This document shows positions 39,547-45,042 of a stretch of 46,731 nucleotides of DNA, piece after piece (within the stretch, counting starts at the first letter, position 1; every line of letters begins with the position of its first letter). Below the pieces are notes generated by a model. The model saw only the letters and a program-made list of their open reading frames with translations. It had not been told where the DNA came from and did not search any database. The position numbers and the translations under genes were made by a program. The DNA is from a virus (Duplodnaviria; Heunggongvirae; Uroviricota; Caudoviricetes): the IMG/VR virus record IMGVR_UViG_2529292726_000019. One strand, written 5' to 3'.

Positions 39547-39893
39547 TGCTTTGCCTCATGCCACTTTTGCTTCAGGAGATAGCCTTCCAGGGGCCAGATT
39601 TGATCGATAGCATCTTTTCGAGCGTACTCGCGACCAACATCAAAGTTGAAGATTTCTGGTCTTACGCACGCAGATTTTCCCGTTACGGTATATCCATTTT
39701 TGAGAACCATAACGCAGAACGTTAAGAGTTTTAACGACTCATGACCTTTGTCGATATCTGTTTTTGAATTGTAAACAGAGATGAAGTTATCCCCGTGGCT
39801 GGCATCATATGCAGTGAAATAATGTTCACTTTGAATGAGTTGTTCAATGTGTTCAGGGGTGACTTTTAGTGGTGTGTTCTCTTTGCTGGTCAT
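39543..39893 (-). CDS. hypothetical protein (116 aa)
   Basis: ORF stop/start coupled to the glutaredoxin gene. Confidence 0.45.
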   Translation of the reverse strand: MTSKENTPLKVTPEHIEQLIQSEHYFTAYDASHGDNFISVYNSKTDIDKGHESLKLLTFCVMVLKNGYTVTGKSACVRPEIFNFDVGREYARKDAIDQIWPLEGYLLKQKWHEAKQ

Positions 39894-39939
39894 TATTTCT
39901 TCCTACAAAGTTCGTAGACTTGACTCTTTCAGTTGCAAA

Positions 39940-39959
39940 AAAGGGGCCGAAGCCCCTTT
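39940..39959 (-). terminator. hairpin ggggccgaagcccc with T-run, downstream of the tRNA cluster
   Basis: aaaggggccgaagccccttt flanked by A/T runs. Confidence 0.45.
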
Positions 39960-40035
39960 GAATTTTGCGCTGAAAAAAAAGTGTTGCTAGGATGTTAGCA
40001 AGCTATGGTTAAGAACGTCTGCCGTAATTGTCTAT

Positions 40036-40113
40036 CACAGCGTTGAGCGGTCTGGTTTATGTTAGCGGAGTCTTAATCTGGGTGATTAAAAGGCCAAACC
40101 GCTCAACGCTGTG
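40036..40113 (-). ncRNA. long hairpin (16-bp perfect stem, about 46-nt loop) abutting the 3' end of tRNA-Ser
   Basis: cacagcgttgagcggt...accgctcaacgctgtg. Confidence 0.3.
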
Positions 40114-40115
40114 TC

Positions 40116-40202
40116 TGGCGGAGAGTAATGGAATCGAACCATCATCGCTTGCGCAATGGGACGGTTTTCAAGACCGCTTGAGCACCATGCTCCCTACTCT
40201 CC
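40116..40202 (-). tRNA. tRNA-Ser (anticodon TGA), class II with long variable arm
   Basis: Acceptor GGAGAGT/ACTCTCC, anticodon loop CTTGAAA, T-loop TTCGATT, encoded CCA. Confidence 0.7.
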
Positions 40203-40346
40203 GGCCGTTGTGGTGGCCGGGACTGAATCTCCGGCATACGGTGCAGCCAATTAGGACTACGGACGATCACCGCTCGCGAAAGGGAAGATTTGCGGCCGCA
40301 TTTCCCTAACATCCAAGAAAGCTATCGCATCAGTCTGCGAATCCAC

Positions 40347-40425
40347 CACAACGGTAAGATCACTACCTTTCGACCAGTCATTGTGCACATGAACGACGAT
40401 TAACCGTAATGATCTTATCGTTGTG
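40347..40425 (-). ncRNA. structured hairpin element 1 (stem cacaacggtaagatca / tgatcttatcgttgtg)
   Basis: About 79-nt imperfect hairpin; paralogous to element 2 and sharing the 3' flank gttgtgttg. Confidence 0.3.
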
Positions 40426-40476
40426 TTGTGAAGCCAGATGCTTATCTTCTGGTTGCCTCAAAGAGCTGCACTTCCT

Positions 40477-40565
40477 CACAACGGTAAGAGCACTGGTCTG
40501 ACTCTATCGATTTACGGGCTTGTGGGTCAGTATCGCCGATTCGCCCAATGCACTTACCTGTTGTG
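40477..40565 (-). ncRNA. structured hairpin element 2 (stem cacaacggtaag / cttacctgttgtg) abutting the 3' end of tRNA-Thr
   Basis: About 89-nt imperfect hairpin; does not fold as a tRNA by eye. Confidence 0.3.
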
Positions 40566-40566
40566 T

Positions 40567-40643
40567 TGGTGCCGGTTAACGGACTCGAACCGCTGACATC
40601 CTGCTTACAAGGCAGGCGCTCTACCAACTGAGCTAAACCGGCA
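40567..40643 (-). tRNA. tRNA-Thr (anticodon TGT)
   Basis: Reverse complement TGCCGGTTTAGCTCAGTTGGTAGAGCGCCTGCCTTGTAAGCAGGATGTCAGCGGTTCGAGTCCGTTAACCGGCACCA folds as a cloverleaf. Confidence 0.8.
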
Positions 40644-40646
40644 ATT

Positions 40647-40733
40647 TGGTGGGGAGTGATGGAGTCGAACCACCCGAGTCGCCATGACAGTAGATTTACA
40701 GTCTACCCCGCTGCCCCTACGGACTAACTCCCC
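40647..40733 (-). tRNA. tRNA-Tyr (anticodon GTA), long variable arm
   Basis: Acceptor GGGGAGT/ACTCCCC, anticodon stem-loop GTAGA-CTGTAAA-TCTAC, T-loop TTCGACT, CCA encoded. Confidence 0.8.
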
Positions 40734-40738
40734 TAAAT

Positions 40739-40813
40739 TGGCGATGGTGGGTGGATTCGAACCACCGACCAGTTGGTTAACAGCCAACTGCTCTACCGCT
40801 GAGCTACACCATC
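40739..40813 (-). tRNA. tRNA-Asn (anticodon GTT)
   Basis: Reverse complement GATGGTGTAGCTCAGCGGTAGAGCAGTTGGCTGTTAACCAACTGGTCGGTGGTTCGAATCCACCCACCATCGCCA. Confidence 0.8.
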
Positions 40814-41591
40814 AATTCAGCACTGCCAGTATTTATTACTCAACAGTGCCAATCGCGACGGTTTAGTTTCTGCCAGGAAACGCACCGCTACTTGCACTTT
40901 TCGTTAGTGCCAGACGCTTTCGACTTCGCTCAATAGTAGAAGGCAAAATCTTTAAGTAGATGATGTTTCTGAGGACAGCACCTACTTTGTAATTTATACA
41001 ATGTGATGTATGGAATCATTTGTTGTGAAAACAGGCACCAATGGCAACAGTGGTTAAACCTACACAACAATCCTGTCTTCACAACGTTGAGGCCACTACT
41101 CCGATTGAATGTTTGCCCAACATGTTACATATCAACGCTCGCCGGTATCTCTGTGAATAGAACCTTAGAATTGATAAAAATGTAATGGCCTCAACGTTAT
41201 GTGCTGGCTAACCATACCAGCCGGGCTACGTCGCCGCTTTTTAACCCAGTATAAACGACATAATTGAACAAAATGACGTAACAGGATGGGCGGTCAGTGG
41301 CTAAGAATCCGGGAGTCATATGGAGTTGAAAATATACCAACCGCCCATTCTGTTACTTCATCGGAGGGAACATGAATGTTCCCTCCTGCGTTCTGCAATC
41401 ACACTCGCTCAGTGTGTCCCATTTCGGTAACGAGGCTGGAAACTGACCTCGCTGGTGTTTGGCTTATTAGGCTACTGCCAGATAGACTTCTTCGTTTGCA
41501 CTTGTATTTAAGTTCAAACAGTCGCGTCTCAACGAAAACAAAGTCATCTTATACACAAAAGATAAGTAAGTAAATACTTATCAATATGTTT

Positions 41592-41882
41592 TTATTCGGT
41601 TGTGACTTTTTTGATCAAGGCCACTCTACGACTAGGTGTTCTTGTGATGGTGGCAGTGAATCGTTTCGCTTGGATAGTAATGGTTTCGTTCTCCTTAAGT
41701 TGCCCGTAGCGAGTTTCCACCAGGGTGCCAAGACGCCACAGACCATCATCGATACGTTTATGACTAGCAAATTTAATCAGCAACAGTTTTACGACTAACT
41801 GACCTACGTAAAAGGCGAATGCGACTCCGGCCGCTAAGAAATAGGTGGCCAACCACCAGTCCCAAGAAGTTAAATTGCTCAT
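41592..41882 (-). CDS. membrane protein (96 aa), member of a small tandem paralogous family
   Basis: N-terminal TM helix WWLATYFLAAGVAFAFYVGQLVV and a basic tail. Confidence 0.5.
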   Translation of the reverse strand: MSNLTSWDWWLATYFLAAGVAFAFYVGQLVVKLLLIKFASHKRIDDGLWRLGTLVETRYGQLKENETITIQAKRFTATITRTPSRRVALIKKVTTE

Positions 41883-44259: not shown

Positions 44260-45042
44260 TTACCAACTTCCCCAGCTAATCATCTTGCGCTGATCGCTTT
44301 CTAAGCGATAGGGGACAAGAAGCTCTGTGACATGATTGGGGGCGTATGATTTAGCCTCTTGCTCTATCATCGGTAATTCGTTAGCAATCCTGACCATCTT
44401 CCCAGCAAACTCCGCCATTACGCCATCACATGCCTTCCCAGCATCAATAACGATATGCACCAGATCCAACTGGCTTTTGCACATGTCGCAAAGAGACGCA
44501 TACTCACTCTCTCTGATTACATTTACGGCATCATTAGCCCCTTTATTAAGCAAGACTTCCAACAGGTTTGTCGGGGTAACGAAATCGGCTTTAAGTGACA
44601 ATGTTCTCTCACCTTTTATCGACCGTAAGTACTCTTCGTAGTTTTGCTTGTCTTCCAGCAAAAATAAGCTATGCATAGTTAGAAGTGATTCTTGAATAGC
44701 CTCTTCAATAATACTGTCATTTGACGCACAAAAAACGGTATTTGTGTAGATCACTTTGCCATCCATCCATGCCCCAACCTGCACTTTAAGACTGATCGGG
44801 TTTTCTTTGCTAATAAAAACAACTAATGCAGAACGCCGTGCACAAGAAGGTTCACCCCATACGTGTAACTTAACCTTCAGATAAGGTAGCCCCGGTAGCG
44901 GGATCTCGACCAAACGAGTGGCGATATGATCCATTGCTGTTTTTACGGCTTTTTCAATGATGTCTAGCCGATTGCTCTCGCTGATTTCTAAACCAGTTTT
45001 ATCAATGATGTCGCAGGCTAATTTCTGAATTTCGTCTTTCAT
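44260..45042 (-). CDS. hypothetical protein (260 aa)
   Basis: ORF downstream of the primase; function unassigned. Confidence 0.5.
   Translation of the reverse strand: MKDEIQKLACDIIDKTGLEISESNRLDIIEKAVKTAMDHIATRLVEIPLPGLPYLKVKLHVWGEPSCARRSALVVFISKENPISLKVQVGAWMDGKVIYTNTVFCASNDSIIEEAIQESLLTMHSLFLLEDKQNYEEYLRSIKGERTLSLKADFVTPTNLLEVLLNKGANDAVNVIRESEYASLCDMCKSQLDLVHIVIDAGKACDGVMAEFAGKMVRIANELPMIEQEAKSYAPNHVTELLVPYRLESDQRKMISWGSW

What the first reader, a model, noticed from the sequence alone, without database searches (positions are those of the whole stretch)
40036..40565. tRNA cluster interleaved with long paralogous hairpin elements
Four tRNAs (Asn, Tyr, Thr, Ser) are co-oriented. tRNA-Thr and tRNA-Ser are each followed immediately by a long hairpin, and elements 40347-40425 and 40477-40565 are paralogs sharing the stem cacaacggtaag and the 3' flank gttgtgttg. 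None folds as a tRNA by eye. They may be processed stable small RNAs, comparable to the small stable RNAs in the T4 tRNA region, or RNase processing signals.
Basis: partly seen in the sequence, partly recalled or inferred. Interest (0 to 1): 0.55.

Follow-up and report, generated by a model that had tools for sequence, protein, structure and literature searches.

The report
Phage tRNA array punctuated by RNA hairpins
A phage-plasmid tRNA gene cluster is interleaved with copies of a long RNA hairpin also found just after the tR' terminator of phage lambda (probably an RNase III cutting signal), plus one copy of a widespread, unannotated tRNA-shaped RNA.

Summary
In transcription order the array is: hairpin E, tRNA-Asn, tRNA-Tyr, tRNA-Thr, hairpin A, a small linker hairpin, hairpin B, module C, tRNA-Ser, hairpin D, two terminators.

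A, B, D and E belong to one family: a roughly 20-bp stem (CACAAC(A)GGTAAG.../...CTTACCGTTGTG) closing an apex that varies greatly. The stem shows compensatory changes and a strand-specific excess of G·U pairs. It occurs in at least 120 viral contigs, always co-oriented with tRNAs or late genes. It is also in phage lambda at 44788-44862, directly after tR'. A 1988 paper title reports RNase III sites in that lambda transcript; I could not check its coordinates.

Module C belongs to a second, larger family. It has a 7-bp closing stem, a 4-bp hairpin, a 5-bp hairpin, a 6-bp loop-loop pairing and a variable insert of 12-166 nt. BLAST matched about 400 deposited phage genomes, including HK620. No listed match carried an RNA annotation, and Rfam 15 has no match.

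None of these elements is a tRNA or resembles T4 rnaC/rnaD. Best reading: co-transcribed RNA processing and structural modules. The trans-acting function of the variable parts is open.

The parts
41080..41201 (-). Hairpin E. A family-1 long hairpin (CATAACGTTGAGGCCATTAC ... GTAGTGGCCTCAACGTTGTG) with a 20-bp stem, upstream of tRNA-Asn.
   Evidence: Found by the arm-pairing scan. Fold -45.9 kcal/mol, z -6.0. Conserved in phage Cyrano (L001 4732-4853) and in L060. The U·G pair in the minus sense would be a C·A mismatch on the plus strand.
40739..40813 (-). tRNA-Asn (GUU)
   Evidence: ARAGORN; Rfam RF00005, 75.5 bits.
40647..40733 (-). tRNA-Tyr (GUA). Absent from the otherwise collinear array of phage Cyrano.
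   Evidence: ARAGORN; RF00005, 39.7 bits. Cyrano has Asn-Thr-Ser only. 88.7% identical to a stretch of the tRNA cluster of Phapecoctavirus DE16.
40567..40642 (-). tRNA-Thr (UGU), with encoded CCA
   Evidence: ARAGORN; RF00005, 74.9 bits. In 17 viral loci the family-1 pattern match starts 5 nt after a tRNA-Thr(UGU).
40477..40565 (-). Hairpin A. Family 1, with stem CACAAC-A-GGTAAGTGCATTGG / CCAGTGCTCTTACCGTTGTG and an apex of about 50 nt.
   Evidence: Fold z -4.05. Its arms closely match the lambda hairpin arms by eye. Its apex recurs in Klebsiella phage vB_Kpn_1825-KPC53 inside a different closing stem.
40426..40476 (-). Linker S, with a small conserved hairpin CCAGAAGATAAGCATCTGG (40452-40434) and a CA-rich 3' tail (CACAACACAAC).
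   Evidence: Conserved directly after family-1 hairpins in P1, P7, Sashavirus, Nonanavirus PJ16 and a Klebsiella phage-plasmid. An analogous hairpin follows the lambda copy. Its fold alone is not significant (z +0.74).
40347..40425 (-). Hairpin B. Family 1, with stem CACAACGATAAGATCATTAC / GTAGTGATCTTACCGTTGTG. Its apex type (ATCGTCGT..TGTGCACAA..TCGAAAG) is shared with other phages.
   Evidence: Fold z -4.49. 77-79% identical copies with compensatory stem changes in Phapecoctavirus DE16 and in Klebsiella phages SCNJ1-C and ST16-OXA48phi5.2 (the latter lambdoid-like).
40205..40354 (-). Module C. Family 2, a tRNA-shaped scaffold. Closing stem 40350-40344 / 40215-40209 (extendable to 11 bp). Hairpin 1 at 40340-40325, with loop AGACUGAU. 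Insert of 87 nt. Hairpin 2 at 40235-40216, with loop AGAUUCAGUC. The two loops are complementary (GACUGA / UCAGUC).
   Evidence: Family alignment A2: 93.7% of cells paired, 12 pairs with changes on both sides, 0 of 500 shuffles reach this. The window copy carries the only double change in the loop-loop helix in that alignment (2 of 93 sequences). A sister plasmid carries a different allele at the same place. No Rfam match.
40116..40202 (-). tRNA-Ser (UGA). It starts 2 nt after the 11-bp extended stem of module C (6 nt after the 7-bp core).
   Evidence: ARAGORN; Rfam clan match at 46.6 bits.
40036..40113 (-). Hairpin D. A family-1 variant clamp (CACAGCGTTGAGCGGTTTGG / CCAGACCGCTCAACGCTGTG) with a 20-bp stem and a 38-nt apex.
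   Evidence: Fold -41.2 kcal/mol, z -10.5. It follows tRNA-Ser(UGA) at 2 nt in the window, Cyrano, L060 and a Klebsiella phage-plasmid; in the last the apex differs.
39937..40001 (-). Two tandem intrinsic-terminator-like hairpins that end the array: TTGCTA..TAGCAA followed by T8 (40001-39973), and GGGGC-TTCG-GCCCC followed by T6 (39959-39937).
   Evidence: Read directly from the sequence. The simple terminator scan did not list them, so this is by eye only.

Best explanation
The region is one minus-strand transcription unit. Four tRNAs are punctuated by modular structured-RNA elements that act at the RNA level.

Hairpins E, A, B and D are members of a widespread phage hairpin family. Its archetype follows tR' in the lambda late leader. 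The conserved part is a stem of about 20 bp with a bulged A and a U·U or U-A position. The apex is free to vary. The most likely mechanism is as follows. Host RNase III recognises the two-turn stem and cuts it. This separates tRNAs from flanking RNA and removes a hairpin that would otherwise block 3' trimming; the stem starts only a few bases after the CCA of tRNA-Thr and 2 nt after tRNA-Ser. In lambdoid phages the same cut would detach the pR'/tR' leader from the late mRNA.

Module C is a separate, tRNA-shaped scaffold. Its acceptor-like, D-like and T-like stems are held together by a loop-loop helix, and it carries a variable insert. It probably behaves as a discrete folded domain, handled like a tRNA by end-processing enzymes.

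What is shown: the structures, their conservation and covariation, strand specificity, modular exchange, and genomic context. What is inferred: cleavage by RNase III, tRNA-like processing of C, and any function of the released pieces.
For: Hairpin family (family 1):
- The arm alignment gives a 20-bp stem, 91.6% paired, with 10 pairs changed on both sides; 0 of 500 shuffles reach this, and slid controls pair at 36-62%.
- In the sense orientation there are 93 G·U pairs against 11 A·C mismatches. This indicates RNA pairing on the strand of the tRNAs and late genes.
- Orientation: 35 of 133 copies have a same-strand tRNA within 1.5 kb and none has only opposite-strand tRNAs. The frequent identifiable neighbours, all co-oriented, are Q antiterminator, RusA and NinG upstream, and holin, endolysin and Rz downstream.
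- The element is in lambda at 44788-44862, right after tR'. It is the longest inverted repeat in the late leader.
- RNase III accommodates about 22 bp of dsRNA (PMC6212723). Daniels et al. 1988 report RNase III processing sites in the lambda late transcript (title seen).

Modularity:
- Cyrano has a compact Asn-Thr-Ser array without A, B or C.
- P1 and P7 share the clamp but have unrelated apexes.
- There are about 35 apex types.

Module C family (family 2).
Against: - No cleavage data exist for this window, and the coordinates of the lambda RNase III sites could not be read. The link rests on a title plus position.
- The stem has a conserved bulge and a conserved U·U mismatch. These could equally be determinants for another protein.
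- Some apex types are conserved across unrelated phages at 74-81% identity, with their own compensatory changes. C alleles are swapped between near-identical plasmids. Both hint that the variable parts are themselves functional, which a pure cutting-signal model does not explain.
- The family-1 alignment was selected by an exact outer pattern and a folding-energy filter. This inflates the percentage paired.
- No promoter was found for the unit.
Confidence: 0.55

Rival explanations
1. The elements are genes for discrete trans-acting small RNAs. The conserved stem (family 1) and the tRNA-shaped scaffold (family 2) would be constant frames that present or release a variable cargo RNA, excised by RNase III and tRNA-processing enzymes. 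The cargo would act on host or competitor targets, for example as a decoy, sponge or guide.
For: - The variable segments are very diverse inside strictly conserved frames: about 35 apex types, and 94 distinct inserts of 12-166 nt.
- Some cargo types are conserved between unrelated phages with their own compensatory changes.
- C alleles are exchanged between nearly identical plasmids at the same position.
- A crude pattern finds a terminator-like site within 120 nt downstream of 24 of 90 C elements. In HK620 the authors annotated the terminator tQ just after the element.
Against: - No target was found. The window's C insert matches only phage-plasmids in 5,426 E. coli genomes and no chromosomal site, although short seeds would be missed.
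- No expression data are available.
- Apex diversity is also what neutral drift would produce in an unconstrained loop.
Confidence: 0.25
2. The elements are decayed tRNA genes, or by-products of tRNA-gene recombination, without a function of their own.
For: - They sit in tRNA arrays.
- Ten family-1 apexes carry a T-loop-like GTTCRANTC motif, and the P1 copy has D-arm-like and T-arm-like hairpins.
- C has stems of 7, 4 and 5 bp, like the acceptor, D and T stems. NCCA follows its closing stem in 15 of 97 copies.
Against: - ARAGORN and the Rfam tRNA model detect nothing.
- 98 of 133 family-1 copies and 84 of 105 family-2 copies have no tRNA nearby.
- Strong covariation and invariant loops across hosts from Escherichia to Pseudomonas and Burkholderia argue for purifying selection.
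Confidence: 0.08
3. The elements are DNA-level palindromes: MITE/REP-like mobile elements, or recombination sites that shuffle tRNA and moron cassettes.
For: - CACAAC and GTTGTG motifs alternate and bound every module.
- Modules are present or absent between relatives.
- One C copy lies next to an HNH endonuclease gene.
Against: - The excess of G·U over A·C is strand-specific, 93 to 11.
- Co-orientation with transcription is strict.
- There are no dispersed copies in the 46.7-kb window beyond the array.
- No target-site duplications were seen.
Confidence: 0.07
4. The CA-rich arms and linkers (CACAACA) act as sponges for the host sRNA GcvB, like the prophage anti-sRNA AgvB.
For: - CACAACA is the GcvB R1 target consensus, and AgvB lies 3' of pR' in lambdoid prophages (PMC4104026).
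- The window has CACAACACAAC at 40428-40418.
- The P1 hairpin 3' arm is 18/26 identical to GcvB nt 56-81.
Against: - The best predicted duplex with GcvB R1 is no better than in dinucleotide shuffles: -26.4 against a mean of -26.6 kcal/mol.
- The Rfam AgvB model scores 16 bits against a cut-off of 56.
- Most CACAAC motifs are sequestered in stems.
- The GcvB resemblance is not kept in lambda.
Confidence: 0.05

Closest known systems
Hairpin after tR' in the phage lambda late leader (NC_001416 44788-44862); RNase III processing of the lambda late transcript (Daniels, Subbarao, Blattner and Lozeron 1988, Virology 167:568)
   Same: The clamp sequence is the same (CACAACAGGTAAGAGCATTG / CAGTGCTCTTTCCGTTGTG). 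So are the bulged A, the small hairpin that follows, the CA-rich tail, and the alternative pairing of GTTGTG with a downstream CACAAC.
   Different: In the window the hairpins flank tRNAs in a phage-plasmid operon, not a Q-dependent leader. There are four copies with two clamp variants and different apexes. That the mapped lambda RNase III sites lie in this hairpin comes from memory plus the paper's title and was not verified.
Phage T7 early and late RNase III processing sites (R0.3 to R18.5) - from general knowledge
   Same: They are paralogous hairpins between cistrons of a polycistronic phage transcript, with a conserved stem and a variable remainder.
   Different: Homology was not tested here. 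T7 sites separate mRNAs, not tRNAs.
Phage T4 stable RNAs species 1 and 2 (rnaC, rnaD) in the tRNA cluster
   Same: They are non-tRNA structured RNAs co-located and co-oriented with phage tRNAs. rnaC contains a T-arm-like hairpin, as do some family-1 apexes.
   Different: There is no sequence similarity. T4 rnaD shows no significant fold (z -0.83). The architectures differ.
tRNA-like scaffolds that lack an anticodon arm: the tmRNA tRNA-like domain and the bacterial Y RNA YrlA - from general knowledge
   Same: Module C has an acceptor-like closing stem, a D-like arm and a T-like arm, with a large replacement where the anticodon arm would be.
   Different: ARAGORN finds no tmRNA. The Rfam YrlA model gives only a chance-level match, elsewhere in the array (15 bits against a cut-off of 69). 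In C the elbow is a 6-bp Watson-Crick loop-loop helix, not a canonical T-loop/D-loop contact.
AgvB/AsxR anti-sRNAs and StxS, encoded 3' of pR' in lambdoid prophages (PMC4104026, PMC7547250)
   Same: They occupy the same genomic niche, the region downstream of pR', and share the CACAACA motif.
   Different: They are Hfq-binding sRNAs of 51-74 nt with terminators. The models do not match, and the GcvB pairing test was negative.

Membership tests
RNase III processing hairpin (lambda late-leader type) | An uninterrupted or nearly uninterrupted dsRNA stem of about two helical turns (about 20-22 bp) | tested here: met
   A, B, D and E have 19-20 bp stems. The family stem of 20 pairs is 91.6% paired. 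RNase III accommodates about 22 bp (PMC6212723).
RNase III processing hairpin (lambda late-leader type) | Sequence homology to the lambda hairpin at 44788-44862 | tested here: met
   The search pattern taken from the window matches lambda exactly. The arms of A and the lambda arms are near-identical by eye.
RNase III processing hairpin (lambda late-leader type) | Lies on the transcribed strand inside a polycistronic transcript | tested here: met
   Co-oriented with tRNAs in 35 of 35 tRNA-linked cases, and with Q, holin, endolysin and Rz genes. G·U outnumbers A·C on that strand. Transcription itself was not measured.
RNase III processing hairpin (lambda late-leader type) | The lambda archetype is the experimentally mapped RNase III site | tested here: inconclusive
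   Only the title of Daniels et al. 1988 could be confirmed; the paper is not held. The hairpin is the longest inverted repeat in the leader.
RNase III processing hairpin (lambda late-leader type) | rnc-dependent staggered cleavage in vivo or in vitro | not testable with these tools
   Needs end-mapping in rnc+ and rnc- cells, or purified enzyme.
tRNA or tRNA pseudogene | A cloverleaf recognised by tRNA finders or the covariance model | tested here: not met
   ARAGORN finds 4 tRNAs only. RF00005 and its clan give no further match at E<=10 in 39800-41100.
tRNA or tRNA pseudogene | Acceptor (7 bp), D (4 bp) and T (5 bp) stems with an anticodon arm and a canonical T-loop | tested here: not met
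   Module C has stems of 7, 4 and 5 bp. It has no anticodon arm; the insert ranges from 12 to 166 nt. Loop 2 is AGAUCAGCA, not UUCRANY.
T4 species 1/2 stable RNAs (rnaC/rnaD) | Sequence or structural similarity to rnaC or rnaD | tested here: not met
   BLAST of the array against the T4 tRNA region matches only tRNA genes. The folds differ.
T4 species 1/2 stable RNAs (rnaC/rnaD) | Accumulates as a stable processed RNA | not testable with these tools
   Needs Northern blots or small-RNA sequencing.
Any Rfam 15 family | A match at or near the gathering score | tested here: not met
   Tested on the window, the lambda leader, ten family-2 loci and the shortest family-2 member at E<=10.
MITE/REP-like DNA palindromes | Strand-neutral pairing and dispersed copies in both orientations | tested here: not met
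   G·U 93 against A·C 11. There are no copies outside the array in the window. No tRNA-linked copy has only opposite-strand tRNAs nearby.
AgvB-like anti-GcvB sponge | A match to the AgvB model and better-than-chance pairing to the GcvB R1 seed | tested here: not met
   AgvB scores 16 bits against a cut-off of 56. Duplex energy equals the shuffle mean.

The most novel reading that the evidence does not exclude
The fused pair 'long clamp hairpin + tRNA-shaped kissing-loop scaffold' may be an undescribed, phage-wide class of RNA. Constant frames, processed by RNase III and by tRNA-end enzymes, would display or release variable cargo RNAs. This would be a bacterial-virus analogue of the tRNA-linked pre-miRNA hairpins of murine gammaherpesvirus. 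The cargo would be under diversifying selection, for example as decoys or antagonists in phage-host or phage-phage conflict. The scaffold family (module C) gave BLAST matches in about 400 deposited phage genomes from Escherichia, Salmonella, Klebsiella, Pseudomonas, Burkholderia and others. No listed match had an RNA annotation, and Rfam has no match.
Probability: 0.3. Interest if true: 0.85.

Novelty: new variant of a known kind. Interest (0 to 1): 0.6.

Why it matters
If the hairpins are RNase III signals, they explain how phage tRNA arrays and lambdoid late leaders are cut into working pieces. The position of a 1988 lambda observation then extends to at least 120 viral contigs, about 900 enterobacterial plasmids (largely phage-plasmid-like) and several unrelated lytic phages.

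The more consequential point is module C. It is a strongly covarying, tRNA-shaped RNA whose two hairpin loops are nearly invariant and complementary to each other, and whose insert varies greatly. It occurs in well-studied phages such as HK620 but is missing from Rfam and from genome annotations. Between otherwise near-identical plasmids it is exchanged as a whole allele. That is the pattern expected of a specificity or conflict determinant.

The work also flags probable mis-annotated ORFs laid over these RNAs: P1 plp and Cyrano CYRAN_40.

Tried and rejected
- Rfam at the gathering score and at E<=10 on the window, the lambda leader and family-2 loci found nothing beyond tRNAs.
- T4 rnaC/rnaD homology: none.
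- GcvB sponge or mimic idea, prompted by a weak AgvB hit: GcvB was fetched and duplexes computed. They were no better than shuffles, so the idea was dropped.
- MG1655 cryptic prophages DLP12 and Qin were checked so that published K-12 RNase III maps could be used. The hairpin is absent there.
- Literature:
  - The 1988 lambda paper and the Court RNase III review are not held.
  - Full-text searches for the motif sequences returned only irrelevant hits.
  - Keyword searches found nothing that describes these elements.
  - The Pas-sRNA preprint concerns other RNAs.
- A global fold of the 901-nt array, and of the 613-nt lambda leader, mixes modules and is not informative.
- The sigma-70 promoter scan found no promoter. 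The terminator scan missed the two terminators that are visible by eye.
- A search for a chromosomal target of the C insert in 5,426 E. coli genomes found only phage-plasmid copies.
- A first clustering of apexes at 60% identity was too lax, because the background 99th percentile is 62%. It was redone at 70-80%.
- A coding explanation was rejected. Only short overlapping ORFs exist on both strands, and conserved stems with unrelated interiors do not fit a protein.
Full report
**What the window is.** The region matches SSU5/Cyrano/CMS-2020a-like E. coli phage-plasmids at 97-98% identity. The 364-nt Thr-Ser spacer matches about 925 enterobacterial plasmids, nearly all of them non-mobilizable.

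**The observation.** ARAGORN finds four tRNAs, all on the minus strand:
- Asn(GUU) 40813-40739
- Tyr(GUA) 40733-40647
- Thr(UGU) 40642-40567
- Ser(UGA) 40202-40116

Rfam agrees. Read 5'->3' on the minus strand, tRNA-Thr is followed within a few bases by hairpin A (40565-40477). Next come a 51-nt linker S, hairpin B (40425-40347), a 150-nt stretch I call C (40354-40205), tRNA-Ser, and 2 nt later hairpin D (40113-40036). Two terminator-like hairpins follow, read by eye at 40001-39973 and 39959-39937.

Folded alone, A, B and D are much more stable than dinucleotide shuffles, with z-scores of -4.05, -4.49 and -10.5. A and B share an 18-nt repeat at 94% identity. Nothing in the spacer or in D is a tRNA, a tmRNA or an Rfam family, even at E<=10.

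**The modules are separable.** Phage Cyrano has a compact Asn-Thr-Ser array. It lacks tRNA-Tyr, A, B and C, but keeps D. Pieces of the spacer recur separately, at 72-81% identity, in unrelated phages:
- B is in Phapecoctavirus DE16, inside a ten-tRNA cluster. There an A-like hairpin again follows tRNA-Thr.
- B plus C are in Klebsiella phages SCNJ1-C and ST16-OXA48phi5.2. In the latter they lie between a tRNA cluster downstream of a Q antiterminator gene and the holin gene.
- C is in a Klebsiella Jedunavirus, just 3' of an HNH endonuclease gene.
- A plus S are in Sashavirus and Nonanavirus, between capsid and neck genes.
- A plus S are in P1 and P7, right after tRNA-Thr.

In every case the sense defined by the window's tRNAs matches the flanking tRNAs, or, where no tRNA is nearby, the neighbouring genes.

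**Family 1, the clamp hairpin.** Comparing copies shows a constant stem, CACAAC-A-GGTAAGAGCATTG / CAGTGCTCTTWCCGTTGTG, around an unrelated interior. P1 and P7 have the same clamp with entirely different apexes.

It gave 79 distinct sequences and about 35 apex types at 70% identity or more, against a background 99th percentile of 62%.
- *Covariation.* On 54 distinct arm pairs, a 20-bp stem is 91.6% paired. Ten pairs show changes on both sides. No shuffle out of 500 reaches this, and slid controls pair at 36-62%. The bulged A after 6 bp, a U·U or U-A position, and a U·G pair are conserved.
- *Caveat.* The outer 10-12 nt were fixed by the search, and a folding filter was applied. The informative covariation is therefore at inner positions 14-17 and 20.
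- *Strand.* In the sense orientation there are 93 G·U pairs against 11 A·C mismatches. This means the pairing is selected in RNA of that strand, not in DNA.
- *Orientation.* 35 of 133 copies have a same-strand tRNA within 1.5 kb and none has only opposite-strand tRNAs. In 17 copies the pattern match starts 5 nt after tRNA-Thr(UGU).
- *Context of the rest.* The other 98 copies have no tRNA nearby. The most frequent identifiable neighbours, all co-oriented, are lambdoid late-region genes: Q, NinG and RusA upstream; holin, endolysin and Rz downstream.

The same scan of the window with relaxed outer motifs finds A, B and D, plus a fourth copy, E, at 41201-41080. E lies upstream of tRNA-Asn and has a perfect 20-bp stem. 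D and E use a variant clamp (CACAGC/CATAAC-GTTGAG...) related to the main one.

**The lambda link.** The element is in phage lambda itself, at NC_001416 44788-44862. It starts immediately after the tR' terminator of the 6S RNA, about 320 nt before gene S. It is the longest inverted repeat in the late leader. Its GTTGTG arm can also pair with a downstream CACAAC, the same alternating topology as in the window.

From memory, Daniels, Subbarao, Blattner and Lozeron (1988) mapped RNase III processing sites in the lambda late transcript. [quoted passage not shown] The paper is not held, so I could not check that the sites lie in this hairpin. RNase III accommodates about 22 bp of dsRNA (PMC6212723), which fits the conserved stem. 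Rfam has no family for the lambda hairpin.

**Family 2, module C.** C looked tRNA-like by eye, so I scanned for its 3' hairpin (GCCGGARAT-N5-8-CCGGCCAYC) and required the 5' hairpin upstream. This gave 93 distinct sequences from enterobacterial and environmental viral contigs. The common plan is:
- a closing stem
- AAU
- GCGC-AGGCUGAU-GCGC
- an insert of 12-166 nt
- AA
- GCCGG-AGAUCAGCA-CCGGC
- the 3' strand of the closing stem

Loop 1 (GGCUGAU) is complementary to loop 2 (AUCAGC). On 46 diverse scaffolds, the model has a closing stem drawn as 9 pairs (the inner 7 well supported), a 4-bp hairpin, a 5-bp hairpin and a 6-bp loop-loop helix. It is 93.7% paired, with 12 pairs changed on both sides; no shuffle out of 500 reaches this, and slid controls pair at 30-44%. 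The closing stem shows up to five pair types per position, and all four pairs of hairpin 1 covary. Hairpin 2 was fixed by the search, so it is uninformative, except in the sister plasmid below.

The window copy carries GACUGA with UCAGUC. This is the only double change in the loop-loop helix in the 46-sequence alignment; it occurs in 2 of the 93 sequences.

Further observations on the family:
- The stem sizes of 7, 4 and 5 bp mirror the acceptor, D and T stems of a tRNA. NCCA follows the closing stem in 15 of 97 copies, and NCC in 31 of 97. This is suggestive, but the flanks are C/A-rich.
- 21 of 105 copies have a same-strand tRNA within 1 kb and none has only opposite-strand tRNAs. Among the recurring co-oriented neighbours are Q and RusA upstream, and holins, endolysins and terminases downstream.
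- 48 of 90 copies abut an upstream long hairpin whose 3' arm overlaps the closing stem of C. This is the arrangement in the window, where B's ...CCGTTGTG overlaps C's TGTGGTG.
- A BLAST of one member against deposited phage genomes finds about 400 records from Salmonella, Klebsiella, Escherichia, Pseudomonas, Burkholderia and others. In the rows listed, the match carries no annotation or only 'hypothetical protein'.
- In HK620 a clamp hairpin fused to the scaffold lies between pR'/qut and the authors' terminator tQ.
- Rfam 15 has no match.

A sister plasmid, NZ_CP027358, has the same array at about 97% identity over the A-to-B part. At the same position it carries a different C allele. The closing stem (GUGAUG/CAUCAC), hairpin 1 (GCAC/GUGC) and hairpin 2 (GUCGG/CCGAC) are all co-varied, and the insert is unrelated. 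The window's own insert occurs only on plasmids: 141 of 5,426 E. coli genomes, with no chromosomal place.

**How it most likely works.**

*Shown:*
- These are RNA-level structures on the tRNA strand.
- They are conserved by compensatory change.
- They are modular.
- They sit in polycistronic units.

*Inferred:*
- RNase III cuts the two-turn stems of E, A, B and D. This frees tRNA precursors whose 3' ends would otherwise be locked by a hairpin that starts a few bases after the CCA of tRNA-Thr and 2 nt after tRNA-Ser. In lambdoid phages the same cut would separate the pR' leader from the late mRNA.
- C folds as an autonomous tRNA-shaped domain. RNase P cleavage at tRNA-Ser would define its 3' end 2 nt beyond the extended stem (6 nt beyond the 7-bp core).
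- Because the hairpin and C share the GTTGTG strand, cutting or melting of B may be needed for the full closing stem of C to form.

I put 0.55 on this processing and structural reading.

**Rivals.**
- *Trans-acting cargo RNAs in constant frames (0.25).* This is favoured by cargo types that are conserved across unrelated phages, and by the allele swapping.
- *Decayed tRNAs (0.08).* Ten apexes carry a T-loop-like motif, but most copies are far from tRNAs and are under clear constraint.
- *DNA palindromes or recombination sites (0.07).* The G·U asymmetry and the strict orientation argue against this.
- *GcvB sponge (0.05).* CACAACA is the GcvB target motif and AgvB lives in the same niche (PMC4104026). 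But the predicted pairing equals the shuffle mean, and the AgvB model does not match.

**Novelty.** The hairpins are new members of a kind whose archetype has sat in lambda since the 1980s. Its family-wide conservation, its variable apex and its link to tRNA arrays do not appear in Rfam or in the literature I could search. Module C appears to be an undescribed structured-RNA family. Overall I file the finding as a new variant of a known kind, with a substantial open upside.

Noticed in passing
The tRNA array is therefore bracketed by hairpins on both sides. The roughly 780-nt stretch between the upstream ORF (41592-41882) and tRNA-Asn is otherwise non-coding.
   Followed up: partly
L007 (phage P1, NC_005856) 1297-1674 and L001 (phage Cyrano) 4129-4341: Annotated ORFs on the opposite strand overlap these RNA elements. 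P1 plp overlaps tRNA-Thr, hairpin A and linker S. Cyrano CYRAN_40 overlaps tRNA-Ser and hairpin D. Both are probably over-annotations.
   Followed up: no
L246 (plasmid NZ_CP027358) 640-735, minus strand: A near-identical sister plasmid carries a different allele of module C at the same position. Every stem is co-varied and the insert is unrelated. This is whole-module replacement, not drift.
   Followed up: partly
L007 (P1) 1555-1645, and ten apex variants listed: Some family-1 hairpins enclose a D-arm-like hairpin plus a canonical T-arm (for example GGGTTCGAATCCC in P1). These are tRNA elbows mounted on a roughly 19-bp stem.
   Followed up: partly
L245 (E. coli gcvB) nt 56-81, against the P1 and window hairpin 3' arms: The hairpin 3' arm CUUACCGUUGUGAUG resembles the GcvB R1 region GGCUUACGGUUGUGAUG (18/26 identical in P1). 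A shuffle control on predicted GcvB pairing showed no signal, and the resemblance is not kept in lambda, so I treat it as a curiosity.
   Followed up: yes
L002 (Klebsiella phage BUCT_49532) 2501-2657: A module-C homolog with the same insert type as the window (74% identical) sits immediately 3' of an HNH endonuclease gene, inserted between tail genes. This suggests co-mobility with a homing cassette.
   Followed up: no
L249 (phage HK620) 857-925 and 1093-1303: HK620 has two clamp-type hairpins and a family-2 scaffold between pR'/qut and the authors' terminator tQ. If tQ ends the unantiterminated pR' transcript, these RNAs would be made constitutively in lysogens, like lambda 6S RNA or StxS.
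   Followed up: no
window 40647-40733; L004 (phage DE16) 3025-3121: The window's tRNA-Tyr is absent from Cyrano. It is 88.7% identical to a stretch in the tRNA cluster of a Phapecoctavirus that ARAGORN does not call as a tRNA. This points to tRNA exchange between unrelated phages.
   Followed up: no
L247 (plasmid CP056250) 1000-1670: In one relative, an IS3-family element lies about 30 bp beyond the point where similarity to the window stops, partway through the Thr-Ser spacer. Only tRNA-Ser is still detected there.
   Followed up: no
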